NCBI RefSeq assembly: GCF_963921235.1
Contig: NC_086108.1
Location: 84,446,001 to 84,510,000, forward strand
From: Mobula hypostoma
Lineage: Eukaryota
DNA: 64,000 nucleotides
Direction: 5' to 3'
Position 1 is the first letter of the stretch; each line of letters opens with the position of its first letter. The translations under genes were made by a program, and so were the position numbers. The notes under the pieces are model-generated. The model searched no databases and was not told where the DNA came from. It saw nothing but the letters and a program-made list of their open reading frames with translations. Shown here in pieces: positions 9,925-55,594 of the stretch.

Positions 9925-10935
9925 AGCAGCACACACAAAATGCTGAAGGAACTCAGCAGGGCAGGCAGCATCTTTGGAAAACAGTAAACAGTCGACATTT
10001 CGGGCCGGAGAACCTTCAGCAGGACTGGAGGAAAAAAGATGATAAGGCAAAGTAAGAAGGTGGGGGAGGGCAAGAAATACAAGGTAGAAGGTGATAGGTG
10101 AAACGAGGAGCGGGGAAGAAGATGAAGTAAAGAGCTAGGAAGTTGACTGGTGAAAGAGATAAAGGGCTGGAGAAGGGGGAATCTAATAGGAGAGGACAGA
10201 AGGCCATGGACGATAGAGAAAGGGGAGGAGCACCAGAGGAAGGTGATGGGCAGGTAAGGAGATAAAGTTAGAGGGGAAAATGGGAATGGGAAATGGTGAC
10301 ATGGGTGGGGTGGGGGGCAATTACCAGAATTTCGAAAAATCGATGTTCATGCCATCAGGTTGGAGGCTACCCAGACAAAATATGAGATGTTACTCCTCCA
10401 ACTTGGGTGTAGCCTCATCGCAGCAGTAGAGGAGACCATGGACTGACATGTCATAATGGGAATGGGAAGTAAAATTAAAATGGTTGGCCACTGGGAGATC
10501 GCTTTTTCTGGCATAGGTACCCTGTGAAGCTGTCTCCCAATATATATCACCGATATACAGGAGGCCACACCGCGAGCACTGGATAGAGTAGATACTCCAA
10601 CAGATTCACAGGTGAAGTGTCACCTCACCTGGAAGGGCTGTTTGGGGCCCTGAATGGTATTGAGGGAGGAGGTGTAGGGACAGGTGTGGGACTTATTCCA
10701 TTTGCAAGGATGAGTACCAGAAGGGAGATCAGTGGGGAGGGATGTCTGGAGAAGGGTGTCACTTAGGGAATGATCCCTGTGGGGGGGGGAGAAAGATGTG
10801 CCAGATGGTGGGATCCTGTTGGAGATGGCCGAAGTCATAGAGAACTATGTGCTGGATGCAGAAGCTGGAGGAGTGACAGGTGAGGACAAGGGGAACCCTA
10901 TCCCTGGTGGGGTGGCAGGAGAATGAGATGAGGGC
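9925..10935 (-). mobile_element. Penelope-like element (GIY-YIG end plus terminal repeat), degraded
   Basis: RDRVPLVLT, GTHPCKWNKSHTCPY, IQGPKQPFQVR; purine/pyrimidine-skewed UTR; degenerate hammerhead at 9990-10026. Confidence 0.8.
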
Positions 10936-11529
10936 AGGCTTTTCAAAAATAAAATCAGAGCAAATGCTGGAAATCCAAAGCAGATAAACCAGGGAATATT
11001 CAGGTCCAGCAAACATCAGTGGAAAAGGAAAAAAGAGTTGACAATTACAACTCTAATGAAGGGATTTCAATCTGACTGACCCATTAACTTTCCATTTCCA
11101 CTGATGCTAGGTGACTTGCTGAATGTTTTAAGCAAAGACTCAGTCAAAAAAAGAGCTGCAGGTGCTGGAAATCTGAAACAGAAACAGACAATGACGGAAA
11201 TTCTCGAGTCAGGCCACATCAGTTCAAGGAGAAACAGTCACCTTTCAGGTTGGAAACTCTTCGTCAAATGTGAAAGGCAGACCAAAGAAACTTGCAAAGC
11301 TGCATGGGCAGCAATGGAGGGAGGTGGCTCTAATAGGGTGAAATGATAGTCACCGTAGGATTAGGTGTAATAAAGGTTATCAGTCAATGAATGAATGAGA
11401 GCAGTTAGAGAATGAGAACATAGATAATAAAAAAAGTGTAGGAGACACAAAATGCAGAGCAGAATGACATGACCAGCAGGTCAGTCTGAGCACATCCCCC
11501 ACTCTCAGCAGAAAATACAAACAAGCTGA

Positions 11530-11900
11530 ACTAATATTGCGGGCAGGCTTACTAGAGCTGTTGGGAGTGGGTTAAACTAATATGGCAGGGGAATGAGAAC
11601 CAGTACGACAGAGCTGAGGTTGAGCCAGCAGGTTTACAAATAGATAATGGATGTAACATGAATGTAAGGAAGGACAAGTCAATGATTGGGTACAAATACA
11701 GATAGAGCAAAGAGTTAAATTGCACCACAGAGGCAAAATTCAAAAGGGTGAAGAATGCAATACAGGATGCTGGATTTAAATCTACGTACTATTCAGGATA
11801 ATATGGATCTAGTGGCGCAATTACAGACTTGACGGTATGAAATTTTGGGCATCACTGAATCGTAGCTGAAAGAAGGCCATAGTTGGGAACTTCTGACATT
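11530..11900 (+). mobile_element. CR1 fragment (ORF1 end / ORF2 start)
   Basis: Homologous to 13190-13570 (gctgttggg..ttaaactaa..ggcagg; ggcatcactgaatcgtagctg). Confidence 0.6.
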
Positions 11901-11959
11901 TGTGGTTGCAAGGGTAAGTGCCATAAGAAGCGCTAAAAGGAGATTTTGTGAACTTCTGG

Positions 11960-12297
11960 TAATTGGCCCAACCTTCACCATTCCACATTCCTGTTTCCCT
12001 CTCTCACCTTATCTCCTTACCTGCCCAACACTTCTCTCTGGTGCTCCTCCCCCTTTTGTTTTTTCCATAGTCTTCTGTGCTCTCCTATCTCTTTCGCCAA
12101 TCAGCTTCCCAGATCTTTACTTCACTTCCTCCCCCTCTCCCGGTTTCACCTATCACCTTGTACTTCTTCCCCCCCACCCTCAACTTCTTACACTGGCTTA
12201 TCTTTCTTTCCAGTCCTGATGAATGGTCTCAGTCCAAAATGTCGACTAGTCACTATTCTCCATGGAAGCTGCCTGCCCTGCTGAGTTCCTCCAGCAG

Positions 12298-12300
<3 letters not shown>
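11960..12300 (+). mobile_element. Penelope-like terminal fragment
   Basis: Pyrimidine-rich UTR, degenerate hammerhead at 12211-12248, then gctgagttcctccagca. Confidence 0.7.
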
Positions 12301-12351
<51 letters not shown>

Positions 12352-12421
12352 TGTGTGTGTGTGGTGTGTGTGTGTGGTGTGTGTGTGTGTGTGGTGTGTG
12401 TGTGTGTGTGTGTGTGTGTGT
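12299..12421. repeat. Interrupted (TG)n microsatellite
   Basis: Direct inspection. Confidence 0.97.
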
Positions 12422-15250: not shown

Positions 15251-15259
15251 CAGGTGACT

Positions 15260-18450: not shown

Positions 18451-20161
18451 AACATGAGAAAAATCTGCAGATCCTGGAAATCCAAATTAACACACACAAA
18501 ATACTGGAGGAACTCAGCAGGCCAGGCAGCATCTGTGGAAAAGAGTAAACAGCTGACGTTTTGGACCGAGACCCTTCATCAGGACTGGAAACAAAGTGGA
18601 GAAGTCAGAGTAAGAAGGTGGGGAGGTGGCAGGTGATAAGTGAAACCAGGAGGGTGAAGTAAAGAGCTGTAAAGTTGATCCGGGAAAGAGATACAGGGCT
18701 GGAGAAGGGGGAATCTGACAGGAGAGGACAGAAGACCATGGAATAAGGGAAAGGGGAGGAGAACCAGCACGAGGTGATGGCCAGGTAAGAAGATAAGGTG
18801 AGAGAGGGGAACAGGAATGGGGAATAGTGAAAAAGGGGAGGTGGAGTGGAGTGCAATTACCTGAAGTTCGAGAAATTAATGATCATGCCATCAGGTTGGA
18901 GGCTACCCAGATGGAATATATAAGATGTTCCTCCTCCAACCTGAAGGTAGCCTCCTCATGGCAGTAGAGTAGGCCGTGGACTGACATGTTGGAATGGTAA
19001 TGGGAAGTAGAATTGAAACGGGTGACCATCGGAAGATCCTGCTTTTTGTGGTGGATGTAACAAAGGTGCTCAACGAAGCAGACTCTCAATCTACGTCAGG
19101 TCTCATCGATATACAAGAAGTCGTACCAGAAGCACCAGACACAGTAGACGACCCCAACAGACTTGCAAGTGAAGATCCGCCTCACCTGGAAGGACTGCTT
19201 CGGGCCCTGAATGGGAGTGACGGAGGAGATGTGGCACTTCTCCCGCCTGCAACGATAAGTACCAGGAGAGAGATCAGTGGGGAGGGACGACTGGACAAGG
19301 GAGTTGTGTAGAGAATGATCCCTGCAGAAAGCGGAAAGTTGGGGGCGGGGGGGGGGAGATGTGCCTGGGGGTGAGATCCCATTGGAAATTGCGGAAGTTA
19401 TGGATAATTATATGCTGGACATGGAGGCTAGTGGGGTGGTAGGTGAGGACAAGAGGAACCCTATCCCTGGTGTGGAGGCAAGAGGATGGGGTCAGGGCAG
19501 CATTGATAGTGGTGAAAGGAAAGCCCCTTTCCCTGAAGGAGAACATGTCAGTTATTCTGGAATGAAATGAAATGGAATGAAAAGCAGATGTGGTGAAGAC
19601 GGAGGAACTGAGAGAAGGGGATGGTGTTTTTACAAGTGACAGAGTGGGAAGAGGGATAGTCCAGGTGGCTGTAAGAATCAGTCTCCAGAGACAGAGAGAT
19701 CAAGAAAGGAGAGATAGAGATGTCAGAAATAGACCAAGTAAATTTGAGGGCAGGGTGGAAGTTGGAGGCAAATTTGATGAAATTGACGAGCTCAGCATGG
19801 ATGCAGAAAGCAGCTCCACTACATTTGTTGATGTAGTGTAGGAAGAGTTGGGGAGCCATGTTGGTGTAGGCTTGGAACCTGGTCTTCTGTTCTCTCCTAT
19901 CAGATTCCCCCATTCTCCAGCCCTTAATCTCTTTCACCAATCAACTTTCCAGCTCTTAACTTCACCCTCTCCCCCTCTCCTGGTTTCATCTATCACCTGC
20001 TAACTTACACTTCTTTCTTTCCTGCCCCCAGCTTCTTTCTCTGACCTCCCCTTCCTTTCCACTCCTGACGAAGGGTCTCAGCCCAAAATGTTGACTGTTT
20101 ACTCTTTTCCACAGATGCTGCTTGGCCTGCTCAGTTCCTCCAGCATTTTGTGTGTGTTATA
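18451..20161 (-). mobile_element. Penelope-like element with inverted terminal repeats and 11-bp TSD
   Basis: RT/GIY-YIG remnants (NFHPALKFTW, HSHLDY-like, IPFSQFLRL, RDRVPLVLTYHP, RFVEH-like, EEEHLIY). Arms ~18490-18740 and ~19880-20158 are inverted. TSD atgtatacata at 18440-18450 and 20162-20172. Confidence 0.85.
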
Positions 20162-22310
20162 ATGTATACATACTTTGATAAAAAATGTACTTTGAACTCT
20201 GAGGAATAAATTGAAAAGTTATTGCTTGCTGGAAATTTGAAATAAAAGCAGAAAATAACAAAAACACAATAGGTCAGCAGCACTGTGGAAAGAGACATAG
20301 TCAATGCTTCCGGTTAAAAGAACCACATAAATATTGCATGTTACACAAACACCCACTTGGTTGAAATGCCAATTCACTAGGATCTATCCCTCAGAAGGAT
20401 GTGAACAGCTTCAGGCCAGAAAAGGAGAGTGAAAATTGGGAAAGAAAACAAATTATCCTGCCAACATATTATCAATTAAATGTGAAGTATTTAGTTGTGA
20501 GAGAAAAGTTAAAAGCATATCCTTCTGAAAATCACTGTTAACAGTACCAATTTCAACTGCAGTAGGATTTTTCGCCCAATCAGCTGCCACAGTAACCTTC
20601 TACACATCACAATGACACCCCTTCACAAGGCTGTGAAAGGTATTGGACTCTAACACTATACTCTCAGAAAAGAGAATTATCAAACTCTGAACATCGTAAT
20701 CCTTTTTCGTAGGTTATTATTCCCACCAGAACTCCTAACTATTAAGCACAAAATAAGAACACACTTCTCAATGACTACCAGAACAGCTGGAATATTAAAT
20801 CAAAATCAGGATGTTCTGCCAAATATCACAGCAGCTGGATCATCCAATTCCAAACCAAAGCACTTCTTATTTATGCCATTCAGAACAAATTAAAAACATA
20901 CTACAATTAACCAAACTAATATCCAACAAGGCAGAGATAAAACTACAGCATTTTCTGAAGTTCAGCAGTGTGGATGTGACTGGCAGACTAATGGGGCTAA
21001 CGAAAATATTAGCATTTTTTCTCCACATCTCTACAGAGAAATTACTTAATGGAACACCACCTGACTGAGAGATTTTTCTCAACGGACTCTAGATAAAATT
21101 GTGCATTCACTTGTTTTGGCATAGCTCCCACTACAAATTTGATATCAAAATTAAATATGATTGGGGTTCTAATGTTCTTCGGTCATTCATTTTTTGGGGG
21201 TTTCTTCTGTTTTGTGGATGTCTGCTAAGAGTAAGAATTTCAGGCTGTATACCGTGTACATTCTCCAATAATAAATGGAACCATTGAACCATTGACAGAT
21301 AGCATCATAAACTGACCAATGATCAGTGATGCTTGCATGATGGTAACATTATTGCAAAAATGCAATGACAGTGTTTCACATTCAGCTATAAACAAGGCTT
21401 TTGAAAAACAGAACGAAGTATAGTGAACACAGCTGATCCTGCAGATGCTGAAAGTCCAGAGAAACACAACATGCTGGAGGAACTCGGCAGGTCAGGTAGC
21501 ATCTATGGAGAGGAATGAAGAGTTGACATTCTGAGCTGAGACCTTTCATAAATATGGTGAAATAGCAAACATCTTCAGTTTGAGTTTGAATGGATATGGT
21601 ATCACCTTTTGCCCTTGAAAACTGAAGAATGTCACAATCGAAGTATCTTAATATGATTGTTTCATATATATTTCCTTGTACATTTATGAACTTTTGAGTG
21701 TTAAAACTGCTAGCAATACAGATTATTGTAATATTCAATACTGATGCTTGAAAAATATATTGATACTGTAGCTATTAATGCGGTGACAAACAACTGTGTG
21801 TAAAAGAATTTGTTAACAAGTTTCTGCCCCTAAACTTGGAGTACATATACAAACTAACACTATTATAGGTCAGGATCTGAACAATCATTTGAACTACTTA
21901 GAACAAGATGAAGGGGTAAATTAAGGAATTTCCTGATGACTATCTTATAATAAAAATTGGGGTAGTTTCAAAACAGACAAAACCCCTAAATTAGTTTAGA
22001 AATAGCTACAAAATTTTTCAGGATAAATTAATGGAATTCAGCCAAATTGCCTTTTTATTTATAATAATTTTATGGTTTTGGAATCCAATGGTGTGTAAAT
22101 GGCTGCCAAATTACAGTCAAAGTGCTTATGGCATGCTTTTTCCCCAAGCATAACATTTTCCTAATTCATCACTGCTCTTACATTTCCGACTCAATGGGCC
22201 AAATGGCTTCATTCCTGCTGTTACCGAATCATCTTTCAAACTGAAATTACATTCAATGGGCCAAGTCAACACTTCAAATGTCCTGGACCAAGAGAAAATA
22301 TTGTGAATAA

Positions 22311-22857
22311 ACACCAAAGGTTTGGCAGATCCTGGAAATCCAGAGCAACAAACACAAAATGGTGGAGGAACTCAACAGATCAGGCCAGTGTCTTTGGAAA
22401 GGAAAGAACATTTCAGGCAGAGACCTTTCATCAGGACTGGAATGGAAGCCAGAATAAAGAGGTGGGGGAGGGAAGGAGTGTAAGTTAGCCAGTGATAGGA
22501 GAAACCAGGTTGGGGGAAAGGTGGGTGGGGTAGAAGGAGTGGTTGGGTGGGGGGATGAAACAAGAAACTAGTTACCTGTCCATCACCTCCATCCACTCTC
22601 CACCACCTTTTAGATTCCTTCTTCTTCAGCCTTTATCCTTTCCAGCTTTTCACTTCACGCCCCCCCCCCACCCACATAACTCCCCCCCTCACCCGGATTC
22701 ACCTATTACTTTCCAGCTTGTACTCTTTCTCCTTCTCCCAGCTTCTTCTCCATTCCTTTCCAGTCTTGATGAAGCGTCTCAGCCCAAAACGTCAACTGTT
22801 CATTCCTCTCCATAGATGCTGACAAACTTGCTGAGTTCCTCCATCATTTTGTGTTTG
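22311..22857. mobile_element. Short non-coding Penelope-derived element with inverted termini
   Basis: Two opposed terminal copies; TSD atatt(g/a)tgaataa at 22298-22310 and 22858-22870. Confidence 0.7.
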
Positions 22858-23507
22858 ATATTATGAATAACTAGTGGAGTTTACCAGAGATCAGTTCTTG
22901 GCTTTAAGTTGCTTTCTATTTGCATTAATGCCCCAGAGAAGAAAACACAATGCAAGGTTTCCAAGTTTGCCAATGATACAACAATATGATGAGAACATTG
23001 TGATTCTGCAGCAGGATGCAAACAAGTTGATACAGTAAAAACCTGACAAGATGGTGTCAAGCTACAACATCCGTAGAAATCACAGCTCAGATTTAGCTGT
23101 TTTTTAAAAAAATTCATAGTGATGGTTTTGGGGACAGAGGGGGGAAGGTAAGGGTCAGGTTGGGGTCTAAGGATGGGTACGTGGGGGAATTAGAGGTCAG
23201 GATGGACACCAAGTCTCCGCTCCACTTTCAGAGGCCAGTGGTGCGGACGTGGGACACCCGTGGTCTGATGTCAGATGTCAGGCCAGCATACCAGTGAGGA
23301 TCAGGGCTGGTGAACTTGTCCCCACCCCCACCCCAACCACAGGGTCAGCGTTTCCTGGGGTTAGAGGATTGTCTATCTACGTGGTGGGAGGGAGAAACGG
23401 GATTTGTTCTGCTGTTTATGTTCTGTTGCTTGTTGTGTGTTCTCTTTTGTTATGCTCTGTGTTGTTCTGCCATGCATTGTGGACATTGTATGTAGGGGCC
23501 GGAATGT

Positions 23508-25640: not shown

Positions 25641-25989
25641 GCTCTAAAATCCATCTTGGCATGGAAAAATCATGGTTATTCTCTGCAACCAAGGAAGACC
25701 CCAGTTTGTGACAATTATGCATACCGCTGAACGCCATCTTCCGAGGTTGAGAAGGTACAACGTCCCCAGTTCCCACTTTAAAGGCTTTTCCACTTTAAAA
25801 CACTCCTGCAAAGGTTCCACTGTCATCGTCAGATACAATAGACAACCAACATGCTGCTATATTCTTTTGATTGATTGTAAATGAACAAAATTAGCACAGG
25901 CACCTAGCAAAGGCAATGCTTTCGAAGATTGCATCCTCCAAATCTTTTCATTGCAAATTCATGATAAGTGTCGATATTTTCAAATTCTT

Positions 25990-26444
25990 GGCATCACACA
26001 AAATGCTGCACGAACTCAGCAGGCCAAGCAGCATCTATGGAAAAAACATAGAAACATAGAAAACCTACAGCACAACACAGGCCCTTCAGCCCACAAACCT
26101 GTGCCGAACATGTCCTTACCTTAGAACTACCTGGGCTTACCCATAGCCCTCTACTTTTCTAAACTCGATCTATCCATCCAGGAGTCTCTTAAAAGACCCT
26201 ACTGTTTCCGCCTCCATGACTGCCGCTGGCAGCCCATTCCACACACTCACCACTCTCTGTGTAAAAAACTTACCCTTGGCATCTCCTCTGTACCTACTTC
26301 CAAGCACCTTAAAACTATGCCCTCTCGTGCTAGCCATTTCAGCCCTGGGAAAAGGCCTCTGACTATCCACATGATCAATGCCTCTCATTGTCTTGTACAG
26401 AGTAAAGAGTCAACATTTCAGGCTGAGGCCCTTCACCAGGACCA
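25990..26444 (-). mobile_element. Penelope terminal fragment, itself interrupted by a CR1 3' end (26047-26400)
   Basis: Flanked by tcaaattctt at 25980-25989 and 26445-26454; CR1 part reads RGIDHVDSQRPFP..RGHSFK. Confidence 0.65.
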
Positions 26445-26960
26445 TCAAATTCTTCTTAGTTCCTAACTTTATGAAGTAGTGAAATTGTTTCCTTTTCACT
26501 CCTGGTTGTTTTGTGCATCTCCAAGCATGACACTGCAGTTTCAGTGAAGAAAACAGTTCTGAATTGTCTCACTGCTTTATTTCTCACCAACTATCAGTGA
26601 CAAAAATCACTGTTCTTTGAACCGAAGCATACACAATTGATGCTATTTAAAAACTGTTTGCTCTTAGCATGGTGTAGTGTCTAACAGCCACACAAGTTCA
26701 CACGACTGACACGAGGAAGAAACTGTTCGGCAACAGTCTCAATTAAGTGGCATAGTGTCTCAAATAAACAATGGGAAGCCTGGCTATTGTCTAGCAGCTG
26801 CCCTAACCCAGTAACATAAACACGAGGAATTCTGCAGATGCTGGAAATTCAAGCAACACACATCAAAGTTGCTGGTGAACGCAGCAGGCCAGGCAGCATC
26901 TCTAGGATCTCTAGGTTAACCCAGTTGACCAGAATCCACAATACATACATATATATATAT

Positions 26961-31425: not shown

Positions 31426-32498
31426 GGCATTCGAGAGGCTCTTAGAATGTGAATGTGCAGAAAATGGAAGATATGGACATTGAGTAGGAGGAAGGATTAG
31501 TGTAGTTAGGAAGTTAATAATTACAGGTGTCTCCCGCTTTTTGAACATTCACTTTATGAAACCTCACTGTTACGAAAGACCTACATTAGTTCCCTGTATT
31601 TGCTAACAGAAGGTGTTTTCACTGTTACAAAAAAAGGCAGTGCGCGAAAAAAATCAGCACGCGCCCCGAGCAGCCGCTCTCCCCCGGATTCGGAACGGCA
31701 TTCTCACCGGCATTGCTTAAACACGTGCCTGTGAGCAGCCGTTAGCAAGATGAGTTCCAAGGTATCAGAAAAGCCTAAAAGAGCTCGTAAGGGTGTTACA
31801 CAGCCTAAAACTAGACATAATTAAGTGTTTTGATGGTGGTGAACAAAGTAAGGGCAAAGTGAGTTTGGCTTGTGGAAGTTGACGAAGATGATGTTGAAGA
31901 GGTTTTGGCATCCCATGACCAAGAACTGACAGATGAAGAGTTGATGAAATTAGAAGAGGAAGGGATAACAATCGAAACCGAATGCAGTAGTGAACAGGCC
32001 GCGGACAGATACCCATTCGAGGAGAATGCAGCGGTAGCCGTAGCCAGGAGGCACACAGCACATCTTTAAGAAAAAAGCAGAAATAAACAAGCTAATTAAT
32101 TAGGTGCCACCCGGCAGGTAATTGTCAGCCCAGATCAGTTGCGACGCAATCGGCAACCGCCTCTGATCTGGGCCGACATCTACGTGCCGGGTGGCACCTA
32201 ATTAATTAGCATGTTTATTTCGGCTTTTTTCTTAAAGATGTGCTGGATGTGTCCCGGCTACCGCTGTACCCCTGCATGCTTCGCGGATCGGTATCGGGTC
32301 GCTGCCTGGAGGGTGGGGGCCACTGCACCACCCCAACCTCCGACATCATCAGTGTGCTCGGCGCTGTCCCAATTCCGGTAAGTGATACTACACTGTACAT
32401 AAATAACAGAAATTCTGCAGATGCTGGAAATTCAAGCAACACACATCAAAGTTGCTGGTGAACGCAGCAGGCCAGGCAGCATCTCTAGGAAGAGGTAC

Positions 32499-32534
32499 AG
32501 TCGACGTTTCAGGCCGAGACCCTTCGTCAGGACT
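32499..32534 (-). ncRNA. Minimal type I hammerhead ribozyme motif
   Basis: agtc CTGACGA agg-gtctcgg-cct GAAA cg TC gact. Confidence 0.8.
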
Positions 32535-33020
32535 AACTGAAGGAAGATTTAGTAAGAGTTTTGAAAGTAGGAGGGGGAGGGGAGATAAAAAATGATAGGA
32601 GAAGACAGGAGAGGGAGGGATGGAGCCAAGAGCTGGGCAGGTGATAGGCAAAGGGAATATGAGAGGATCATGGGACAGGAGGCCCGGGGAGAAAGAAAAG
32701 GGGGGGGACCCAGAGGATGGGCAAGGGGTATTGTCAGAGGGACAGAGGGAGAAAAAGGAGAGTGAGAGGAAGAATGTGTGTATAAAAATAAATAATAGAT
32801 GGGGTACGAGGGGGAGGTGGGGCATTAGCGGAAGTTAGAGAAGTCAATGCTCATGCCATCAGGTTGGAGGCTACCCAGGTGGAATATAAGGTGTTGTTCC
32901 TCCAACCTGAGTGTGGCTTCATCTTTACAGTAGAGGAGGCCGTGGATAGACATGTCAGAATGGGAATGGGATGTGGAATTAAAATGTGTGGCCACTGGGA
33001 GATCCTGCTTTCCTTCAGTT

Positions 33021-33054
33021 GTCCTGATGAAGGGTCTCGGCCTGAAACGTCGAC
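33021..33054 (+). ncRNA. Minimal type I hammerhead ribozyme motif
   Basis: gtc CTGATGA agg-gtctcgg-cct GAAA cg TC gac. Confidence 0.78.
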
Positions 33055-34222
33055 TGTACCTCTTCCTAGAGATGCTGCCTGGCCTGCTGAGTTCACCAGC
33101 AACTTTGATGTGTGTTGCTACACTGTACATACATTATTTCTACTATATATCGGCTGTGTATTTTTACGTGTTATTTGGTATGATTTGGCAGCTTCATAGT
33201 TTAAAGGTTACTGGAGAGAGTGTTTCTGCCGAGAGCGTTTGCGTGAGATTTTTGCTATGGAGAACAGTGCAGGCAATGATTGTGGACAGGTATTTTTACT
33301 TTATATAGGCAGTGTATCTATCATATTATTCCTGCTTTTACTATATGTTACTGTTATTTTAGGTTTTATGTGTTATTTGGCATGATCTGATAGGTTATTT
33401 CTGGGTCTGCGAACGCTCACAAATTTTTCCCACATAAATAAATGGTAATTGCTTCTTCGCTTTACAACATTCTGGCTTACGAACCGTTTCACAGGAACGC
33501 TCTACCTTTGGATGGCGGGGGAAACCTGTAATTTATTTAGTTCTGCACAACATTGTGGGCCATAGACCTGATCCTCTGCTGTATGTGCTAGTTTTTAAAT
33601 GTCAGTGGTTATCAGTCATTGAAATTTTAAAATCCATGACAAGAAAACTCTGCCTCCAGTTTTGCCTTGCATCAGAGTCTTGACAGTACATCTATAGCAT
33701 TATAGGAACACATTTGTCTCATTGAGTCTTTATACAAGGCCTACTTAGCAAGGCCAACTCTCCCACCTTCCCCACATAGCTTTGCGGTTCTCCTTTTCAA
33801 ATACTTATTCAGCTACCTTTAAAACACCACTGACTGCATTACCTGAGACTAGTGACAGAATTCCATGATATAAAACATTAGCAAGATTGGCCCTTATGAT
33901 CCAGTCTAGATATATGCAGGTATGCAAGGACGGCAAATGCCAAGTCTGGATAGCAAACTCCAGAGCAATGAATCTGGATATCAAAACCTGGTGTGATCAA
34001 ACCTCTTTGATTTTAGACATTCCACAGGCCTTCTAAAACCACCAAAACATTTTGAGAGGAACTGCTTGATCAATTGACATAAAAAGTGCAGTTCCGCCTC
34101 CACATTTGAAATAAATAATAACATTAATCTCTTTTTGACAGCATGGTTCCACATGACTAATTTAGTTAATTCCAGGCATTTGACAAATTGTTGTGTATAT
34201 AGTACTTCAATAATATTTGAGT

Positions 34223-41148: not shown

Positions 41149-42815
41149 GGACCATAGGACATAGGAGGAGAATTAGGCCATTCAGCCCATTAAGTTGGTT
41201 CCACAATTCCATCGTGGCTGGTCCTGAATCCCACTCAACCCCATATTGCCTACTCCACATATCCTTCGATGTCCCAACCAATCAGGAAACTATCAACTTC
41301 TGCCTTAAATATACACACGAACTTGTGTATATTCCACACAGTCTGTGGCAGAGCATTCCACAGATTTACTACCCTCTGGCAAAAAAAAAAATTCCTCCTT
41401 ACCTCCGTTCCAAACGGTCGCCCCTTGATTTGGAGGCAGTGCCGTCTAGTTCTACATATGCCCACCACAGGAAATACCCTCTCCATATCCACCCTATCTG
41501 ATCATTTCAACGTTTGGTAGGTTTCAATGAGATCCCCTGTGTTTTTCTAAATTCCAGTGAGTACAGGCCCAAAGCTGCCAAATGCTTCTCAAATGTTAAC
41601 CTCTTCATTCCCAGAATCATCCTTGTGAACCTCTTCTGGACTCTCTCCAATGACAACACATCCTTTCTGAGATATGGGGCCCAAAACTGTTGACAATACT
41701 CCAAGTGCAGCCTGACGAGTGTCTTAAAAAGCCTCAGGATTATTTCCTTGCTTTTATATTCTATTCTCCTTGATATAAATGCCAACATTGCATTTGCCTT
41801 CTTTACCACAGACTCAACCTGTAAATTAACCTTCTGGAAGTCTTGCATGAAGACTCCTAAGTTCCTCTGCACCTCTGATGTTTGAACCTTCTCCCCATTT
41901 AGATAATATCCTGCACTATTGTTCCTTTTACCAAAATGCATTATTACACATTTCCCAACACTGTATTCCATCTGCCACTTTTTTGTCCCATCTTCCAATT
42001 TGTCTAAGTCCTGCTGCAATCACATTGCTTCCTCAGCACTACCTACCCCTCCACTTATCTTTGTATCATATGCAAACTTTGCCACAAAGCCAATTTCATT
42101 ATCTAAATCATTGACAGACAATGTGAAAAGTGCTTGGTAAGTTGATGGAGAAGATCCTGAGAGGCAGGATTTATGAACATTTGGAGATATATAATATGAT
42201 TAGGAATAGTCAGCATGGCTTTGTCAAGGGCAGGTCATGCCTTACGAACCTGAATTAATTTTTTGAGGATGTGACTAAACACATTGATAAAGGAAGAGCA
42301 GTAGATGCAGTGTACATAGATTTCAGCAAGGCATTTGATAAAGTACCCCATGCAAGGCTTATTGAGAAAGTAAGGAGGCATGGGATCCAAGGGGACATTG
42401 CTTTATGGATCCAGAACTGGCTTGCCCACAGAAGGCAAAGAGTGGTTGTAGACGGGTCATATTCTGCATGGAGGTCGGTGACCAGTGGTGTGCCTCAGGG
42501 ACCTGTTCTGGGACCCTTACTCTTCGTGATTTTTATAAATGATCTGGATGAGGAAGTGAAGGGATGGATTAGTAAGTTTGCTGATGACACAAAGGTTGGA
42601 GGTGTTGTGGATAGTGTGGAGGGCTGTCAGAGGTTACAGCAGGACATTGATAGGATGCAAAACTGGGCTGAGAAGTGGCAGATGGAGTTCAACCCAGATA
42701 AGTGTGAAGTGGTTCATTTTGGTAGATCAAATATGATGGCAGAATATATTATTAATGGTAAGACCCTTGGCAGTGTGGAGGATCAGAGTGATCTTGGGGC
42801 CTGAGTCCACAGGAC

Positions 42816-42984: not shown

Positions 42985-43081
<97 letters not shown>

Positions 43082-46719: not shown

Positions 46720-46909
46720 TAGAAGCTATGCCTTGCATTAATGTTCCACAAAACATAAACCTTGACCCCCCCCCACCACCACCACCCCCACTGTACAGCC
46801 CTGTCCTCCAACAAAAAAAGTTCAATTCATGATCTGGGAAATTGTGTACCAATACCCATTTCTGGGAAGCCACTTCAATGGCAAAAGTAGACATCAGTGA
46901 TGGAATGTA

Positions 46910-47038
46910 AACAACAGGAACTCTGCAGATGCTGGAAATTCAAGCAACACACATCAAAGTTGCTGGTGAACGCAGCAGGCCAGGCTGCATCTCTAGGAAG
47001 AGGTACAGTCGACGTTTCAGGCCGAGACCCTTCGTCAG
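46910..47038 (-). mobile_element. ~125-bp Penelope terminus with 16-bp TSD, ending at the hammerhead core
   Basis: TSD tcagtgatggaatgta at 46894-46909 and 47035-47050. Confidence 0.85.
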
Positions 47039-48061
47039 TGATGGAATGTACTACCTTCTTCACTAGTCCACTTTGGCTAAATGAAGAAAACACCTATCAT
47101 CTCCCAACTACTTTCTTCATAGCCCCTCCCCCCCCACCTACCTTCCCACTACCTTGGTTTCACCAATCACCTGTCAGCATGTACTCCTTCCACTTCCCCT
47201 GCCTTCATATTCTGGATTTCTCTCCTTTCCTCTCCAGCACTGATGAAAAATCTCAGCCTGATATCTTGACTCTTTATTCCTCTACATAGTTGAGTTCCCC
47301 CACAATTCTGTATGTGTTCCTGAGGAAAACAGTGTTTGAAAATTTGGATCTCAAACCTGACACAACATTCATGGTCAAGGCAAAACCTCAGTGAATTTTA
47401 ATATCTCTCAAGGCATTAGAAAGAGACCACAAAAAGTGTCTCAAAATCCTCCAAATTCACAGAAAGGATAAAATGACCCCTCTTCCAAATCCTCTGCCAG
47501 ATCGATATCCCCACACCAAGGCCCAAATTACACTCATTTGGATACCTTGGAAAGCCAAGTGATTTGCATGCCTCAAATACCAGACGCACACAATCAGATG
47601 CTGCATTTCAAGCTCTTTCATAAGAAGAGATTTTAGGTGGTCAGATGAAAAGATTCAAGAATGTGCTCAAAGCCTTCACAAAAGAACGGCACTATTCCCA
47701 GTGACTCCTGGAAACCATTACAACAGTTGCAAGTGAAGGAGGAACATTTGGGATGTTATTAAGAATACAGGTTCCTTACAATGAGCAGTTTAAAACTCCT
47801 GGGAGTGCACATCTCACACAACCTTTCATGGTCCCAGAAGAAAGCTCACCAACGCTTCTACTTTCTGAGGAGGCTGCAGAGCGCTGGACTATGCTCATCT
47901 ATACTCACATCATTCTACAGAATCACAGTAGAGAGCGTCCTAACATGCTGCATCACTGCATGGTACGGATTCTGCACTGCAGCAGGCAGAAAGGCTCTCC
48001 AATGGGTAATCAAAACTAGCAACATATCACTGGCATCAGCTTACCCACCACCAAGGACATA

Positions 48062-49004: not shown

Positions 49005-50343
49005 TCATAGAACCATAGAACCATAGAAACTACAGCACAGAAACAGGCCTTTTGGCCCTCCTTGGCTGTGTCGAACCATTTTCTGCCTAGTCCCACTGAC
49101 CTGCACACGGACCATATCCCTCCATATACCTCCCATCCATGTATCTGTCCAATTTATTCTTAAATGTTAATAAAGAACCCACATTTACCACCTCATCTGG
49201 CAGCTCATTCCATACTCCCACCACTCTCTGTGTGAAGAAGCCCCCCCTAATGTTCCCTTCAAACTTTTCCCCCCTCACCCTTAACCCATGTCCTCTGGTT
49301 TTTTTCTCCCCTTGCCTCAGTGGAAAAAGCCTGCTTGCATTCACTCTATCTATACCCATCATAATTTTATATACCTCTATCAAATCTCCCCTCATTCTTC
49401 TACGCTCCAGTGAATAAAGTCCTAACCTATTCAACCTTTCTCTGTAACTCAGTTTCTCAAGTCCTGGCAACATCCTTGTAAACCTTCTCTGCACTCTTTC
49501 AACCTTATTTATATCCTTCCTGTAATTTGGTGACCAAAACTGAACACAATACTCCAGATTCGGCCTCACCAATGCCTTATACAACCACATCATAACATTC
49601 CAGCTCTTATACTCAATACTTTGATTAATAAAGGCCAATGTACCAAAAGCTCTCTTTACGACCCTATCTACCTGTGACGCCACTTTTAGGGAATTTTGTA
49701 TCTGTATTCCCAGATCCCTCTGTTCTACTGCACTCCTCAGTGCCTTACCATTAACCCTGTATGTTCTACCTTGGTTTGTCCTTCCAACGTGCAATACCTC
49801 ACACTTGTCTGTATTAATCTCCATCTGCCATTTTTCAGCCCATTTTTCCAGCTGGTCCAAGTCCCTCTGCAGGCTCTGAAAACCTTCCTCACTGTCTACT
49901 ACACCTCCAATCTTTGTATCATCAGCAAACTTGCTGATCCAATTTACCACATTATCATCCAGATCATTGATATAGATGACAAATAACAATGGACCCAGCA
50001 CTGATCCCTGTGCCACACCACTAGTTACAGGCCTCCACTCAGAGAAGCAATTCTCTACCACCACTCTTTGGCTTCTTCCATTGACCCAATGTCCAATCCA
50101 ATTTACCACCTCTCCATGTATACCTAGCGACTGAATTTTCCTAACTAACCTCCCATGCTGGACCTTGTCAAAGGCCTTACTGAAATCCATGTAGACAATA
50201 TCCACTGCCTTCCCTTCATCCACTTTCCTGGTAACCTCCTCGAAAAACTCCAATAGATTGGTCAAACATGACCTACCATGCACAAAGCCATGTTGACTCT
50301 CCCTAATAAGTCCCTGTCTATCCAAATGCTTGTAGATTCTGTC
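49005..50343 (-). mobile_element. Young 5'-truncated CR1 with uninterrupted 412-aa RT ORF (49087-50325)
   Basis: SQHGF..CLTNLLEFFEEVT..YMDFSKAFD..QGSVLGPLLF..KFADDTK..RPNLEYC..RGHGL; repeated catagaac tail. Confidence 0.95.
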
Positions 50344-50838
50344 ATATATATTTATATATAGTGTCTTTTTTATTACTGCGTTCTATATCTTAAGTGCATT
50401 TTTATATGCTGCATTTGATCTAGAGCAACAATTATTTCATTCTCCTTCACACTTTCATACTGAAAATGACATTAAACCATCTTGATCTTAAGCCTGGGAT
50501 TCGAAAATCTGAAATGAAAGCAGAAATGCCAGAACAGCTCGGTCAAACAGCAGCTGTGGAAAAGGGAAATCAGGCAGGCATTTTTTTTCAATCAGCAACC
50601 TTGTTACATGTCCTTCCTGACGCTGCTTAACTTGCCAAGTTCTCCTAGTCTTTCTGGTTTTGTGTCTCGGAATTGATTACAGCCAAAAGAACAGAAGAAG
50701 ACCTGATTAAGCAGTTCAAGATCCTAGATACCAACGCAGAATTTTAATACTAATCCAGCATCATGTTATTTTCTTTGCACAGGAACTTTATGAACCATGA
50801 TTAATGATAAATATGAGCCAAGACAAGATCCCACACAC

Positions 50839-50892
50839 TTGCATAATTAACAGCTTCTCTTAAAGCACGTCTAGCCTCTCTGATGTTAGAGT
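50839..50892 (-). CDS. Candidate 54-bp exon (SNIREARRALREAVNYA)
   Basis: ctttcctattgattttag| acceptor, open in phase 1, weak donor |gtgtgt. Confidence 0.25.
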
Positions 50893-51437
50893 CTAAAATC
50901 AATAGGAAAGTTTGAGTTTGAAACACCACATGTTCTTTCCCACATTCCTTTGCCTTTGATCCCAACACATGATCCGATACCAAAAACAACATTGCTGCAA
51001 ACACTCAACAGGTCAGGACACATTTGTAGAAAGAGAAACGGAGTCAGTATTTCAGATCAGAAACCCCTCATCACATTATTTACTCTGAATTCTTATGTTT
51101 ATGTTCTCACCTTCTAAGTGCTCCATTTGACTATGAGTTGATAACTATGTTTACAGCTTATTGCCATAATCACCCCAGTTTTACCCTATAAGAGACATCC
51201 ACCTTTTCCGCTCTCATTACAGCTCTACAAGCCTCTTTTCAGTCTGACAATCGGTCTGTGACATGACATGTTGACTCCTTTTCTGCTCCTACAGTTGAGG
51301 CCTAATCTGAGTATTTCTAACATTTTCAGTTTTTTGCTTTGGACTCCAACCTGTAGCCAGATTCCTGTGGCATTCGTACAATGGCCTTGGACTTCATATG
51401 AATTGTCAGCCTGAAACAATCTTACAGTCCACTCCAT

Positions 51438-51977
51438 GGAACAACACCTTATATTCCGTCTGGGTAGCCTCCAACCTGATGGCATGAACACTGACTTCTC
51501 TAACTTCCGTTAATGCCCCATCTCCCCTTTGTACCCCATCCCATTTTTATTTATTTTTATTATTTTTTTTTCTTTCCCCTTTTTTTCTCTCTCTTTTTTC
51601 TCCCTCTGTCCCTCTCACTATAACTCCTTGCCCAACCTCTGGGCTTTTCCCCCCTCCTCCCCCTTTCTTTCTCCCTAGGCCTCCCGTCCCATGATCCTCT
51701 CCCTTCTCCAACCTCGTATCCCTTTTGCCAATCACCTGTTCAGCTCTTGGCTCCATCGCTCCCCCTTCTGTCTTCTCCTATCATTTCAGATCTCCCCCTC
51801 CCCCTCCCACTTTCCAATCTCTTACTATCTCTTCTTTCAGTTAGTCCTGACGAAGGGTCTCGGCCCGAAACGTCGACTGTACCTCTTCCTACAGATGCTG
51901 CCTGGCCTGTTGCGTTCACCAGCATTTTTTGTGTGTGTTGCTTGAATTTCCAGCATCTGCAGATTTCCTCGTGTTTA
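51438..51977 (+). mobile_element. Young Penelope-like 3' fragment
   Basis: EQHLIFRLGSLQPDGMN, pyrimidine-rich UTR and terminus; highly similar to 55012-55590 and 32402-33010. Confidence 0.88.
51843..51878 (+). ncRNA. Minimal type I hammerhead ribozyme motif
   Basis: agtc CTGACGA agggtctcggccc GAAA cg TC gact. Confidence 0.78.
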
Positions 51978-51979
51978 CA

Positions 51980-52208
51980 TTCTACAGATGCTGGAAATCC
52001 AAAATAACGTATACAAAATGCTGGAGGAACTCAGCAGTCAAGCAGCACCAATGGAAAGGAATTACAGTTGACGTTTCAGACTGAGCCTTTCATCGGGGAC
52101 TGAGTGGACTTATTCCTTTCCATTGATGCTGTCTCACCTGCTGAGTTCCGCCAGCATTTTGCGTGTGTTGCTCTGGATTCCCAGTATCTGTAAAGCCTCT
52201 TGTGTTTA
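51980..52208. repeat. Palindromic MITE-like unit made of two opposed Penelope termini
   Basis: aaaatgctggaggaactcagcag ... ctgctgagttccgccagcatttt. Confidence 0.7.
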
Positions 52209-54379
52209 ACACTCTGAGAAGGTGAGGTATGTCCACAATGGGATGATCAGTGCTGGGCAAGAATTTCAAATCATCTTAAAAACTACTGGTAAATGAGATT
52301 CGGACTTTCAATCAAGTAGCCCTTTGTGAACAACATACAGGGAGCACGCAAAGGCAACTTCAAAACTTGTATGACACCAAAATAATGGTTCCCCTGTAGA
52401 ATCATAGCACGTCATTCTGTCTGGCCACTCACTGGACAAGCCCTGCACCTGAGCTACTCAAAAGACAGTCAAAAAGCTTGAGGAATCTTGCTACCTATCG
52501 GACAAGCACAACACACAATGTCATATTGAAGACACACATTCAAAGTTTTAGAAACAGCTTCTTCCCCTCCGCCATCAGATTTCTGAAAGGACAATGAACC
52601 CAGGTACTGTACCTCACTGTTTTTTTTCTATTTCTGCTCTCTTTTTCACTACTTAGTTGATTTAATTTTACATATGGCAGTATGCCAGTGATATTAAACC
52701 CAAATCTGAGGTCTCTGAACTTGTTAATTCAAAGATAAAAATCAATGAGAGGAGCCAAATTCCAAGGCTCTCCCTAGACTGGAAGAAGGGCTCTGCCAGA
52801 TAGCACCTATCCTTCTATGAGGAGCTACTAATACCTTTCAAAGTACGATTATCATTGCTAAGATTTTCAAAGGCAGCGATAACAGACATCTTTCACTAGA
52901 AACTGGGATCTGATAGTGGGCATGTGTGTCTTGGGTTCATGCCAACATTTAATCTTATTTGACACAGAAGCCTTCGCTAACATTATCAAGTAACTCACTA
53001 GTGAAGCCCCTTTCTCCTGGGCGTCTCTGGAAATGCGGCTCGATAGCCCCTCGCCAACAGCCACTGGATTCCGTGGCGAGTAACCCACCTTTCAGGTGCT
53101 CTGTACATCTAGGGTGTACATCCTATGAAGTTGGGATGTCTCGCTCACCCAAACCCCGGTTTGTGTGAATGCTGTTTGATTTACTGGCCCCCTACAATCG
53201 CCCATCAGCAAGAAATTACCGATTGAACACTGCATACAATTATAAAGAAAGTGTATATATGACTGTCAACTTAACCAGTTATTTAAAAAAGGCAGAAAAC
53301 AAAAAGTGCCCATTATAAGTCAAATATGCACATATATTGGAGCTCAACTTGAAGTTGTTTGTAACTCACACACTGGACCCTCGGTCTGCAAGAAAGCACA
53401 CACCACCTTCCAAATCACACTCAAAATCCATCTCAAACAAATGGGCTCTCCTTGGGAGTACTGGTTCTTCCTCCTTGAAGCCATTCATCTGCTCAAGGCA
53501 CCTTGTGCAACAGGGATGGCATCTTCAGCCATCTTCCCTCCTGTCTTCTCCCAGCTCCTGCCAAAAAAGACCTTGACCCATACCAGTGTCCCTCACAAAA
53601 CCTCTCTGCCCAGCGTTCTCTCGAACCTTCTCCCAATTCCACCATCCTGACTGGCTAACACCACATTCCGAAGCTGAACAACAAAGCCCCTTATCTCAGC
53701 TCTAACCCAAACAGGCTTAAAGTGGCATAGACTGCTCTTACAGAACTGTTCAAATGGAATACCTAAGTATCGTAGCAAAAATCTTAACCGGGTGGGGGAA
53801 TTACACTTGGATAGCAAGAACCTTTGATTTCTTTGCAATTCTCCCCAAGCAACTGTTCTAAACCCTCCAGTCCTAAAAGGTTCAGTGCCACTGATATGAT
53901 TGGTTATGGTCATAAGGTTGATCTACAAACTACAAGATTGCATGACTTGATTAGAAAAGCAAAGGGTTCATAATGAATCTGCATAGAATCTTAGTTTGCC
54001 AAATTGAAATAGTGAGCACAGCTCAAAGTTCAAAAGTACAATTGAGGTTTTAAAAAGGTGATTAAAGATACAGTCATACTTCACTACAACACTATTACAG
54101 CAGAGTATTTAAACAATTAGTTTTTCTACATTAAAATCTTAACTACTCTTCAAAAGGATTTAATTTTTATTTCAAAGAAGTTGGGCAGCATCACCGATAA
54201 CAACACCTCACTTCCCAAAGTGCTTAATGCAGTCAATGCGTTTCGAACAGAAGACAAGGGGTTTGTCACCAGCCACTGCGGCAGTCTCAAGTGCAATTGA
54301 ACCCACAGTCACCACTACAGACGCAAGGCAAGATCATTCTTATGGAGAGTGAACATGTGGAAAACATCTGGCGTGGATG

Positions 54380-55010
54380 TTATCACTGTCTGTATCTTTG
54401 CACTCAGTGCAGATCAGCTGGCAGGAATGATTGCAGATGTTTTTAACCTCTCCCTGCTTCATTTTGTGGATCCCACCTGATTTAAGAGCACCAGTGGGTG
54501 CCATCTCCCTGGTGCTACAGTCATCTCTGGAGCATCTGCATAGCAAATACAACCATATCAGACTACTGATAGTGACTTCAGCTCTGCCTCCAACACTGTC
54601 ATCCCAAGTGAATTCATCGCCAAACTATGGATCCTGGCAATCAATGCCTCTCTCTGCAACTGGATCCTTGACTTCCTCACCACACACCACAATCAGTAAG
54701 GACAAGCAGCAACACCTCGATGACAATTATTCTAATCACGATGCTCCACAAGGTAGTGTCTTCAACCCCTAACTCTACTCCCTGTACACTCATGACTATG
54801 TGCCCATATTCCATACTCTAATTCCATTTACAAGTTTGCAAATTATACCACCATAGTGGGCTGTTTCTCCAATAACAATGAATCAGAGTACAGGAGAGCA
54901 TAGCATAACATAGTGTCAAAATAACAGCTTTTCCATAAATAACAGTAAAACAAAAGAGTTGGTCATTGACTTCAGGAAGGAGAGGGCCGGTGCACATGCT
55001 CTTGTCTACA
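54380..55010 (+). mobile_element. Degraded Rex1/Babar RT fragment
   Basis: APQGSVFNP, YKFANYTTIVG, KELVIDFRK. Confidence 0.7.
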
Positions 55011-55011
55011 T

Positions 55012-55590
55012 CATTAATTCCACATCCCATTCTGACATGTCTATCCACGGCCTCCTCTACTGTAATGATGAAGCCACGCTCAGGTTGGAGGAACAACACC
55101 TTATATTCCGTCTGGGTAGCCTCCAACCTGATGGCATGAACATCGACTTCTCTAACTTGCGCTAATGCCCCACCTCCCCCTCGTATCCCATCTGTTATTT
55201 ATTTTTATACACATTCTTTCTCTCACTCTCCTTTTTCTCCCTCTGTCCCTCTGAATATACCCCTTGCCCATCCTCTGGGTCCCCCCCCCTTGTCTTTCTT
55301 CCCAGACCTCCTGTCCCATGATCCTCTCGTATCCGTTTTGCCTATCACCTGTCCAGCTCTTGGCTCCATCCCTCCCCCTCCTGTCTTCTCCTATCATTTT
55401 GGATCTCCCCCTCCCCCTCCAACTTTCAAATCCCTTACTCACTCTTCCTTCAGTTAGTCCTGACGAAGGGTCTCGGCCTGAAACGTCGACTGCACCTCTT
55501 CCTATAGATGCTGCCTGGCCTGCTGCGTTCATCAGCAACTTTTATGTGTGCTGCTTGAATTTCCAGCATCTGCAGAATTCCTGTTTGCGT
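55012..55590 (+). mobile_element. Young Penelope-like 3' fragment
   Basis: NSTSHSDMSIHGLLYCNDEATLRLEEQHLIFRLGSLQPDGMNIDF. Confidence 0.9.
55456..55491 (+). ncRNA. Minimal type I hammerhead ribozyme motif
   Basis: agtc CTGACGA agg-gtctcgg-cct GAAA cg TC gact. Confidence 0.8.
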
Positions 55591-55594
55591 ACAC

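What the first reader, a model, noticed from the sequence alone, without database searches (positions are those of the whole stretch)
9990..55491. Dispersed family of minimal hammerhead ribozyme motifs carried by Penelope-like termini
Seen: the motif agtc-CTGA(C/T)GA-hairpin-GAAA-cg-TC-gact has an intact core at 32499-32534(-), 33021-33054(+), 47007-47038(-, lacking the 5' stem I strand), 51843-51878(+) and 55456-55491(+). Decayed copies lie near 9990, 12211, 18551, 20061, 21521, 22407, 22761, 26408, 47240 and 52066. Stem I is agtc/gact, and stem III is reduced to the palindrome ACGT. Established: Penelope-like elements carry minimal type I hammerheads that are thought to cleave as dimers through such a palindromic stem III. 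Inference: predicted cleavage after GUC (33051, 51874, 55487; 32503 on minus). If the window is intronic, the host pre-mRNA carries several same-strand copies that could pair in cis. The class is known; activity of these copies is not.
Basis: partly seen in the sequence, partly recalled or inferred. Interest (0 to 1): 0.75.

Follow-up and report, generated by a model that had tools for sequence, protein, structure and literature searches.

The report
Penelope leftovers carrying tiny hammerhead ribozymes
These small RNA motifs, predicted to self-cut, are the already described miniature hammerheads of a Penelope-type jumping gene with about 45,000 exact copies in this genome; the copies here are broken leftovers, likely copied from uncut RNA and likely too trapped in mirror-image pairing to cut the host's RNA.

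Summary
Observation confirmed. Five motifs have an intact core at the stated places; 45,139 exact copies occur genome-wide (control 0). The carrier is a Neptune-type Penelope-like element (PLE): a full-length tandem copy elsewhere has motif, 1,043-aa RT/GIY-YIG frame and motif again 3,515 nt on. Across 7 subfamily consensuses the 36-nt motif is 86% alike against 47% for the upstream flank, so it is likely under selection. It matches the published minimal hammerhead of animal PLEs.

The cis-pairing idea for this window is weak: 32499/33021 are the two mirror arms of one insertion (14-bp target duplication), 47007 lacks a stem I strand, folding locks 4 of 5 copies to antisense copies, and no host gene or strand was found. 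Copy 5' ends pile up at the motif's first base (2,598 junctions, about a third from older subfamilies) rather than at the cut site (412; neighbouring controls 221 and 155), so templates were likely uncut. A middle-aged subfamily, including the 9990 copy, spread with a damaged core (A6C). Earlier scan notes report the same family, the 5'-end pile-up and A6C in this genome. Known kind; low interest.

The parts
55014..55585 (+). 5'-truncated young PLE copy: EN C-terminus (aa 992-1043), pyrimidine-rich 3' region, hammerhead, tail
   Evidence: 93% DNA identity to full-length L037 unit; tblastn 90%. No TSD found
55456..55491 (+). minimal hammerhead, intact core, stem I 4/4, stem II 4/4 (G10.1-U11.1 wobble), ACGT; predicted cut after 55487
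   Evidence: only intact copy not locked by a nearby antisense arm in local folding (11 of 36 nt paired outside)
51438..51977 (+). 5'-truncated PLE copy of a slightly older young subfamily (83% to the 55014 copy; an independent insertion)
51843..51878 (+). minimal hammerhead, intact core, G10.1-C11.1; predicted cut after 51874
   Evidence: 32 of 36 nt predicted paired to the adjacent antisense old copy
32402..33117 (-). one insertion: 5'-truncated copy on minus (EN end, 3' region, hammerhead, tail) plus a 110-bp inverted arm; 14-bp TSD at 32388 and 33118
32499..32534 (-). minimal hammerhead, intact, main arm of the insertion
   Evidence: 34 of 36 nt predicted paired to the inverted arm
33021..33055 (+). 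minimal hammerhead, intact core, stem I cut to 3 bp; inverted arm of the same insertion
   Evidence: 34 of 34 nt predicted paired to the main arm
46909..47038 (-). 130-bp mini-insert starting at motif position +5 (core intact, no 5' stem I strand) and ending at the tail; TSD of up to 16 bp including a CTGA microhomology
26818..26907 (-). 90-bp stub of the young family starting downstream of the hammerhead (+45)
18451..20161 (-). one older insertion: RT thumb, linker and EN remnants (18860-19922), decayed hammerhead 18551-18586 (-) and inverted arm with hammerhead 20061-20096 (+); 11-bp TSD
22311..22863 (-). one older two-armed insertion with decayed hammerheads 22405-22438 (-) and 22762-22797 (+); 7-bp candidate TSD
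9924..10950 (-). older copy with linker/EN remnant and an A6C hammerhead at 9990-10026 (non-palindromic ATGT)
12080..12309 (+). older copy, hammerhead 12212-12247 with G12A; possibly the inverted arm of the 9924 copy (TSD not tested)
51979..52208 (-). old head-to-head insertion; decayed hammerhead 52066-52101 (-), second arm without hammerhead
47171..47326 (+). old decayed copy (hammerhead 47236-47271)
21427..21551 (-). old decayed copy
26395..26442 (-). old decayed copy (A6G), split from its tail near 25983-26045 by another repeat

Best explanation
The motifs are the minimal hammerheads in the terminal repeat of a very abundant Neptune-type Penelope-like retroelement, and the copies in this window are truncated leftovers that are likely inert. 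SHOWN: the motif lies about 300 nt behind the GIY-YIG endonuclease stop and about 70 nt before the next open frame; full-length tandems carry it twice, 3.5 kb apart; copies end at +98 or +134 and very often begin at the motif's first bases; many insertions have a mirror-image arm. INFERRED: the element's RNA starts at, or is processed to, the foot of the motif; the element's RT starts inside the RNA at +98/+134 and copies it while it is still uncut; a lone motif folds into an inactive hairpin (core GACG paired with CGUC); cutting after GUC would need two motifs on one tandem transcript swapping strands through the ACGU palindrome, probably helped by the element's protein, and would serve the element (unit-length or circular RNA), which is why source elements kept the motif. 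Scattered copies in host RNA would mostly be trapped in long duplexes with antisense copies and would rarely cut.
For: Carrier: EN remnants upstream of four window copies; L037 motif-ORF-motif with 3,515-nt spacing, inverted 5' arm and 14-bp TSD, same spacing in L042 and L045 (3 of 20 long-ORF loci); RVT_1 and GIY-YIG Pfam hits, both below curated cut-offs; 922 homologues at E<=1e-20, the closest from rays and sharks. Selection: 7 subfamily consensuses, motif 86% mean pairwise identity (21 of 36 invariant), core 92% (8 of 11), upstream 36 nt 47% (2 of 36), next 14 nt downstream 61%. Uncut templates: 17 of 58 young pieces begin at -3..+5 (4 of them one duplicated locus), none at +32..+34; 12 of 47 exact copies begin at -8..+2; junction counts +1: 2,598 (32 of 100 listed are older subfamilies, my count), +29: 155, +33: 412, +37: 221; 21 of 30 +33 junctions are head-to-head joins. 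Inertness: TSDs, folds; 0 of 100 consecutive exact copies have a same-strand partner at tandem spacing, 16 of 100 sit in mirror pairs. Literature: monomers inactive and dimers weak in vitro (PMC4209133); anole PLE hammerhead cuts only with protein, mutants do not affect insertion, uncut RNA is the main substrate, no RNA-seq ends at the site (PMC11167929).
Against: No cleavage was measured. Junctions at the cut site are 1.9 to 2.7 times the two neighbouring controls, so a minor cut-template class is possible. No compensatory base-pair change was found within this lineage (one search shows only one-sided changes and loop changes), and a second block downstream is also conserved (75%), so conservation could reflect another role. 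Nearest-neighbour folding ignores tertiary contacts, proteins and co-transcriptional splicing; it also rates the dimer far below alternatives even for adjacent copies, so it cannot rank activity. The 55456 copy has no adjacent antisense arm.
Confidence: 0.8

Rival explanations
1. One reading: the window lies in an intron, and same-strand copies (chiefly 51843 and 55456, 3.6 kb apart) pair in cis and cut the host pre-mRNA to a measurable degree.
For: Both copies are fully intact and their spacing (3,613 nt) is close to the natural tandem spacing (3,515 nt). One public run, only guessed to be RNA, covers the unique sequence around them evenly while a larger run does not.
Against: No host exon among 125 of 195 low-copy frames scanned, no strand or splice joint; 51843 is predicted to be paired with the antisense copy next to it (-72 kcal/mol net) or with 47007 (-175); min-HHR dimers are weak in vitro and the tested PLE motif needs its protein; 45,139 exact copies split evenly between strands are tolerated.
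Confidence: 0.08
2. The motif is kept mainly for a non-catalytic job, such as promoter/initiator, splice acceptor or binding site for the element's RT, and cutting is vestigial in this lineage.
For: A subfamily amplified with A6C (60 of 100 listed matches of a diagnostic pattern, 902 matches; 10 of 45 in a random 1.0 Mb against at most 3 changes at other core positions); A6C strongly lowers Mg2+ activity in other hammerheads (PMC7151607). 5' ends cluster at the motif's foot; all 7 consensuses have a pyrimidine tract ending in AG at the foot. PLE clades without hammerheads spread well (PMC8557442).
Against: 6 of 7 consensuses, including both young ones, keep A6, and both core halves, both stems and the palindrome are kept while N7 and loop 2 vary, the pattern expected of catalysis; A6C ribozymes keep some activity.
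Confidence: 0.25
3. Most new copies are made from self-cut RNA (unit-length linear or re-ligated circles), so the ribozyme is obligatory in the cycle.
For: 412 junctions begin exactly at the cut site against 221 and 155 at neighbouring positions; long copies with an intact motif are also what a re-ligated circle would give; this is the model proposed in PMC4209133.
Against: Junctions at the motif's foot outnumber those at the cut site several-fold at a single position; 21 of 30 cut-site junctions are head-to-head joins, many explained by GACT microhomology; A6C subfamily; anole data.
Confidence: 0.12

Closest known systems
Minimal type I hammerheads (min-HHR) in pLTRs of metazoan PLEs (Cervera and De la Pena 2014, PMC4209133; parts 1-2 of 4 read, 2 of 3 supplements searched)
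   Same: CUGANGA and GAAA-NN-UH core, no loop 3 with palindromic 15.2-16.2, 4-5 bp stem I, extra nucleotide between 9 and 10.1, in both pLTRs about 3 kb apart, mostly single dispersed copies, opposite-strand pairs 100-700 bp apart.
   Different: Stem II is only 4 bp; the dominant young subfamily has G10.1-U11.1 instead of G-C; copy number (45,139 exact) exceeds the 4,000-9,000 reported for coelacanth and frog; no cartilaginous fish is named in the parts read or the supplements searched.
Neptune/Nematis-type EN+ Penelope-like elements (Craig et al. 2021, PMC8557442; passages read)
   Same: Single RT-EN frame with DKG motif, C-X4-C-X2-C linker, CxxC inside GIY-YIG, partial tandems, inverted 5' arm, optional tail of about 36 bp.
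   Different: Clear 11-16 bp TSDs and no (TA)n targeting seen in the copies inspected; no tree against named Neptune or Nematis elements was built.
PAc (Poseidon) of Anolis carolinensis (Frangieh et al. 2024, PMC11167929; parts 1-2 of 4 read)
   Same: Hammerhead at the pLTR-ORF junction, two 3' end points a tail apart downstream of it, signs that uncut RNA is the template.
   Different: Other clade; here the motif lies before the open frame, not across the start codon; activity untested here.
Animal non-LTR retrozymes (bioRxiv 10.64898/2026.07.22.740005; part 1 of 5 and passages read)
   Same: Type I hammerhead related to PLE pLTRs; reported from one chondrichthyan.
   Different: Retrozymes are short head-to-tail arrays; no such array is in the window and the copies carry EN remnants.
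Natural A6C hammerhead of phage Bcep176 (Naghdi et al. 2020, PMC7151607; passages read)
   Same: Same CUGCNGA core as the middle-aged subfamily and the 9990 copy.
   Different: Those ribozymes are monomeric with a full stem III; effect in a minimal dimer is untested.

Membership tests
min-HHR of metazoan PLEs | Core C3 U4 G5 A6 N7 G8 A9 ... G12 A13 A14 A15.1, U16.1 H17 | tested here: met
   5 of 5 named copies have all 11 letters
min-HHR of metazoan PLEs | Stem III reduced to a palindrome (15.2-16.2), no loop 3 | tested here: met
   ACGT in 5 of 5
min-HHR of metazoan PLEs | Stem I of 4-5 bp and stem II with an extra nucleotide before 10.1 | tested here: met
   3 of 5 copies have 4/4 stem I pairs, one 3, one 0; stem II 4/4 in all after an unpaired A
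min-HHR of metazoan PLEs | G10.1-C11.1 pair (highly conserved, not obligatory) | tested here: inconclusive
   G-C in 51843 and most consensuses, G-U in 4 of 5 copies and the young consensus
min-HHR of metazoan PLEs | Located in both pLTRs of a PLE | tested here: met
   L037, L042, L045: same-strand motifs about 3.5 kb apart around the ORF
min-HHR of metazoan PLEs | Covariation in stems | tested here: inconclusive
   only one-sided and loop changes among 7 consensuses; targeted stem I test negative
min-HHR of metazoan PLEs | Self-cleavage as a dimer | not testable with these tools
   needs bench assay; contigs cannot show RNA ends
Rfam hammerhead families | Covariance-model match | tested here: not met
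   no hammerhead among 4 matches at E<=5
EN+ Penelope-like elements | Single ORF with RT and C-terminal GIY-YIG endonuclease with CCHH | tested here: met
   1,043-aa frame in L037; motifs read directly; Pfam RVT_1 E 0.0025 and GIY-YIG E 0.001, below curated cut-offs
EN+ Penelope-like elements | Partial tandem, inverted 5' arm, 30-40 bp tail | tested here: met
   3' ends: 21 of 47 at +96..+108 and 16 of 47 at +133..+138
Neptune/Nematis clades | CX2-5CxxC linker between RT and EN | tested here: met
   C-X4-C-X2-C in the linker (definition)
Neptune/Nematis clades | RT phylogeny with named members | not tested
   no named reference proteins were at hand
Non-LTR retrozymes | Short non-coding head-to-tail repeats each with a hammerhead | tested here: not met
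   no such tandem in the window; EN remnants upstream

The most novel reading that the evidence does not exclude
This lineage is a natural knock-down and rescue of the Penelope hammerhead: a source element with a crippled core (A6C) made tens of thousands of copies, and the youngest, most abundant subfamily arose from inside that group and regained A6. With the RNA starting at the motif's first base, the ribozyme would be a protein-gated switch that clips the element's own 5' leader, dispensable for a jump but selected over evolutionary time.
Probability: 0.15. Interest if true: 0.55.

Novelty: new member of a known kind. Interest (0 to 1): 0.2.

Why it matters
As a class it is known, and at about one exact copy per 77 kb it is background in this genome. 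What remains useful: (1) the family gives tens of thousands of dated insertion junctions that bear on the open question of what PLE hammerheads do, and they point to uncut templates; (2) the A6C subfamily gives a ready pair of natural constructs (A6 against C6) to ask whether cutting matters for transposition; (3) if scattered copies did cut host pre-mRNA it would affect many long genes, but the evidence here is against it.

Tried and rejected
Rfam scan: no hammerhead match. Host gene: 195 low-copy frames of 45 aa or more in the window; 125 scanned, 0 Pfam hits; intronic status and strand remain unknown. Sequencing runs: no holder on record as RNA; contigs of three runs laid on 50400-57400 show even low cover of unique sequence in X1 only, no splice joints, no ends or strand: no verdict. 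51843 and 55456 as two pLTRs of one element: rejected, 83% identity and no RT between them. Compensatory change in stem I: I assumed GTTAAC could not come from CpG decay; 92 of 100 listed matches keep AGTC, so the test failed. Reversion from A6C in the young family: the ML tree nests it among C6 copies; all 16 C6 copies as one clade is rejected (p-AU 0.0003) but the core C6 group, defined after seeing the tree, is not (p-AU 0.14), so unproven; 19 of 65 rows were left out of the tested tree (16 young, one long branch, one without the position, one young C6 copy). Cut-site footprint: at most a weak excess. Dimer fold as a thermodynamic minimum: not supported by ViennaRNA, not informative on activity. 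PDB search of the ORF: nothing at E<0.25. Lunse et al. 2017 (dimer cleavage of PLE hammerhead variants) is not held; I saw only its title and a review's summary, so it may already list these motifs or A6C. Paper searches for Penelope+hammerhead+shark, Penelope+Neptune+Chondrichthyes and Penelope+hammerhead+CUGCUGA found no description of this family; one supplement of PMC4209133 and the bioRxiv supplements could not be searched.


Full report
Observation. The five motifs are present as described. All have the 11 core letters, ACGT and C17; stem I has 4 of 4 pairs at 32499, 51843 and 55456, 3 at 33021 and 0 at 47007; stem II has 4 of 4 pairs after an unpaired A, closing with G-U in four copies and G-C at 51843. 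A profile search finds 21 hits to the motif and its downstream block in the window; the ten decayed places are real, 9 of 10 with core changes, and four more were missed. The 34-nt motif has 45,139 exact matches in the 3.48-Gb genome, evenly on both strands, against 0 for the control; a random 1.0 Mb holds 216 profile hits, 11 exact copies and 20 with intact core, stem II and ACGT. The window is only mildly rich. Rfam has no match.

Carrier. Upstream of 55456, 51843, 32499, 18551 and 9990 lie remnants of a GIY-YIG endonuclease C-terminus, with RT thumb remnants at 19358-19922. A search with that remnant gave many long frames. Of 20 long-frame loci fetched, three show two same-strand motifs about 3.5 kb apart around the frame; L037 is complete: inverted 5' arm, partial copy, motif, 1,043-aa frame, motif, tail, 14-bp TSD. 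The protein has the DKG motif, RT motifs, a C-X4-C-X2-C linker and CxxC inside GIY-YIG, with weak Pfam RVT_1 and GIY-YIG hits. That linker defines Neptune and Nematis (PMC8557442, passages). The closest homologues come from rays (78-94%) and sharks, so the host is likely a ray.

Anatomy of the window copies. 32499 and 33021 are the two arms of one insertion with a 14-bp TSD; 18551/20061 (11 bp) and 22407/22761 (7 bp) likewise; 47007 is a 130-bp mini-insert with its own TSD. 51843 and 55456 are independent (83% identity, no RT between), so their 3,613-nt spacing only resembles a tandem. Genome-wide, 16 of 100 consecutive exact copies are in mirror pairs within 2 kb and none has a same-strand partner at 3.4-3.6 kb; 72 of 216 random hits are in mirror pairs within 1.5 kb.

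Is the motif selected? I clustered 120 spanning hits from 1.26 Mb and compared 7 subfamily consensuses (2 hits left out): motif 86% mean pairwise identity, core 92%, upstream 36 nt 47%, next 14 nt 61%, downstream block 75%. N7 and loop 2 vary; stems persist. Against: no two-sided compensatory change was found, and the oldest consensuses are noisy.

Can the copies pair in cis? In the double-hammerhead fold each junction takes its stem I from the 5' strand of one copy and the 3' strand of the other (established model; PMC4209133). On the minus strand the only partner of 32499 is 47007, which lacks the 5' strand, so the 32503 site has no partner in the window. On the plus strand, local folding pairs 34 of 34 nt of 33021 and 32 of 36 of 51843 to antisense arms; net duplex energies with antisense copies are about -170 kcal/mol, against -9 to -14 for the dimer fold; a lone motif prefers an inactive hairpin at about -12. 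These are predictions without tertiary contacts or proteins. No host exon was found and public contigs give no strand or ends. Published min-HHR monomers are inactive and dimers weak; the anole PLE motif cuts only with its protein, and no RNA-seq reads end at its site (PMC11167929).

What the junctions record. Numbering from the A of AGTC, the cut is after +32. Among 58 young pieces, 17 begin at -3..+5 (four from one duplicated locus), six at +11..+31 and none at +32..+34. Among 47 exact copies, 12 begin at -8..+2, 13 at -9..-250 and 22 further up; 3' ends cluster at +96..+108 (21) and +133..+138 (16), the PLE tail. Genome-wide patterns demanding four non-consensus letters before a position gave 2,598 at +1 (32 of 100 listed are older subfamilies by my count), 155 at +29, 412 at +33 and 221 at +37. 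Of 30 loci at +33, 21 are head-to-head joins, 3 small indels, 2 internal joins and 4 true flanks. So most short copies were likely made from RNA that begins at the motif's foot and was not cut; a minor cut class is not excluded. The foot has both an initiator-like sequence (recalled consensus YYANWYY) and a pyrimidine tract ending in AG in all 7 consensuses; Drosophila Penelope has an internal promoter and an intron ending at stem I (PMC2377424, passages). I cannot tell start from splice; TSD-flanked minis without an upstream exon favour a start. This test was prompted by earlier scan notes and agrees with notes on this genome; those are unchecked AI notes, not support.

A6C subfamily. One cluster (14 copies, 14% from consensus) has C at position 6 in 11 of 12 copies with a letter. 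A diagnostic pattern has 902 matches, 60 of 100 listed with C, 34 A, 5 T, 1 G (my count); in the random 1.0 Mb position 6 is C in 10 of 45, while other core positions show at most 3 changes. These copies carry RT/EN remnants, and the window's 9990 copy is one. A6C sharply lowers activity in Mg2+ in other hammerheads (PMC7151607, passages). The tree nests the young A6 family among C6 copies, but reversion is not established. Earlier notes report the same subfamily; no paper was found.

Verdict. A new member of a known kind: the min-HHR of a Neptune-type PLE. Identity is near certain; activity is unmeasured; the window copies are likely inert leftovers (0.8); measurable cutting of host RNA in cis is unlikely (0.08). 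Interest 0.2.

Noticed in passing
window 55505-55575 (+) and all copies; motif positions +51..+125: A second conserved block follows the hammerhead (75% across 7 consensuses) and is predicted to form a closed multi-stem structure spanning both 3' end points; a candidate binding or priming site for the element's RT.
   Followed up: partly
window 55425-55458 (+), 51812-51845 (+); L037:5610-5640: Branch-point-like sequence, pyrimidine tract and tandem AG sit right at the hammerhead's foot, overlapping initiator-like sequence; could be a splice acceptor that trims stem I.
   Followed up: partly
window 9990-10026 (-); L177-L206: A6C core marks a middle-aged subfamily with roughly 10 recognisable copies per Mb.
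   Followed up: yes
window 55456-55491 and the young subfamily: The most abundant young subfamily fixed G10.1-U11.1 in place of the usual G-C pair, weakening stem II (predicted -2.5 against -5.1 kcal/mol).
   Followed up: partly
L083, L096, L098, L166, L170: A second young subfamily (8% from consensus) on a long branch keeps core and stems but changes loop 2 and both flanks; other, unrelated hammerhead-like families with longer stem II also appeared in the random sample.
   Followed up: no
window 50400-55050: Run X1 (guessed RNA) covers unique sequence evenly at depth about 6 with no mismatches while the larger X3 does not; may be tissue-specific transcription or DNA.
   Followed up: partly
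window 49087-50382 (-), 42259-42804 (+), 33981-35850, 30356-30898 (+): LINE fragments with long RT frames (CR1-like and RTE-like by recalled motifs; RVT_1 hits for three of them).
   Followed up: no
window 1597-3048 (+), 28521-28919 (-), 38367-39055 (+): Decayed hAT-like transposase (recalled resemblance), a DDE_1 transposase fragment and a gypsy-like integrase remnant (recalled resemblance).
   Followed up: no
window 32036-32265: A 108-bp inverted repeat with a 14-nt spacer (87% complementary), not part of the PLE family.
   Followed up: no
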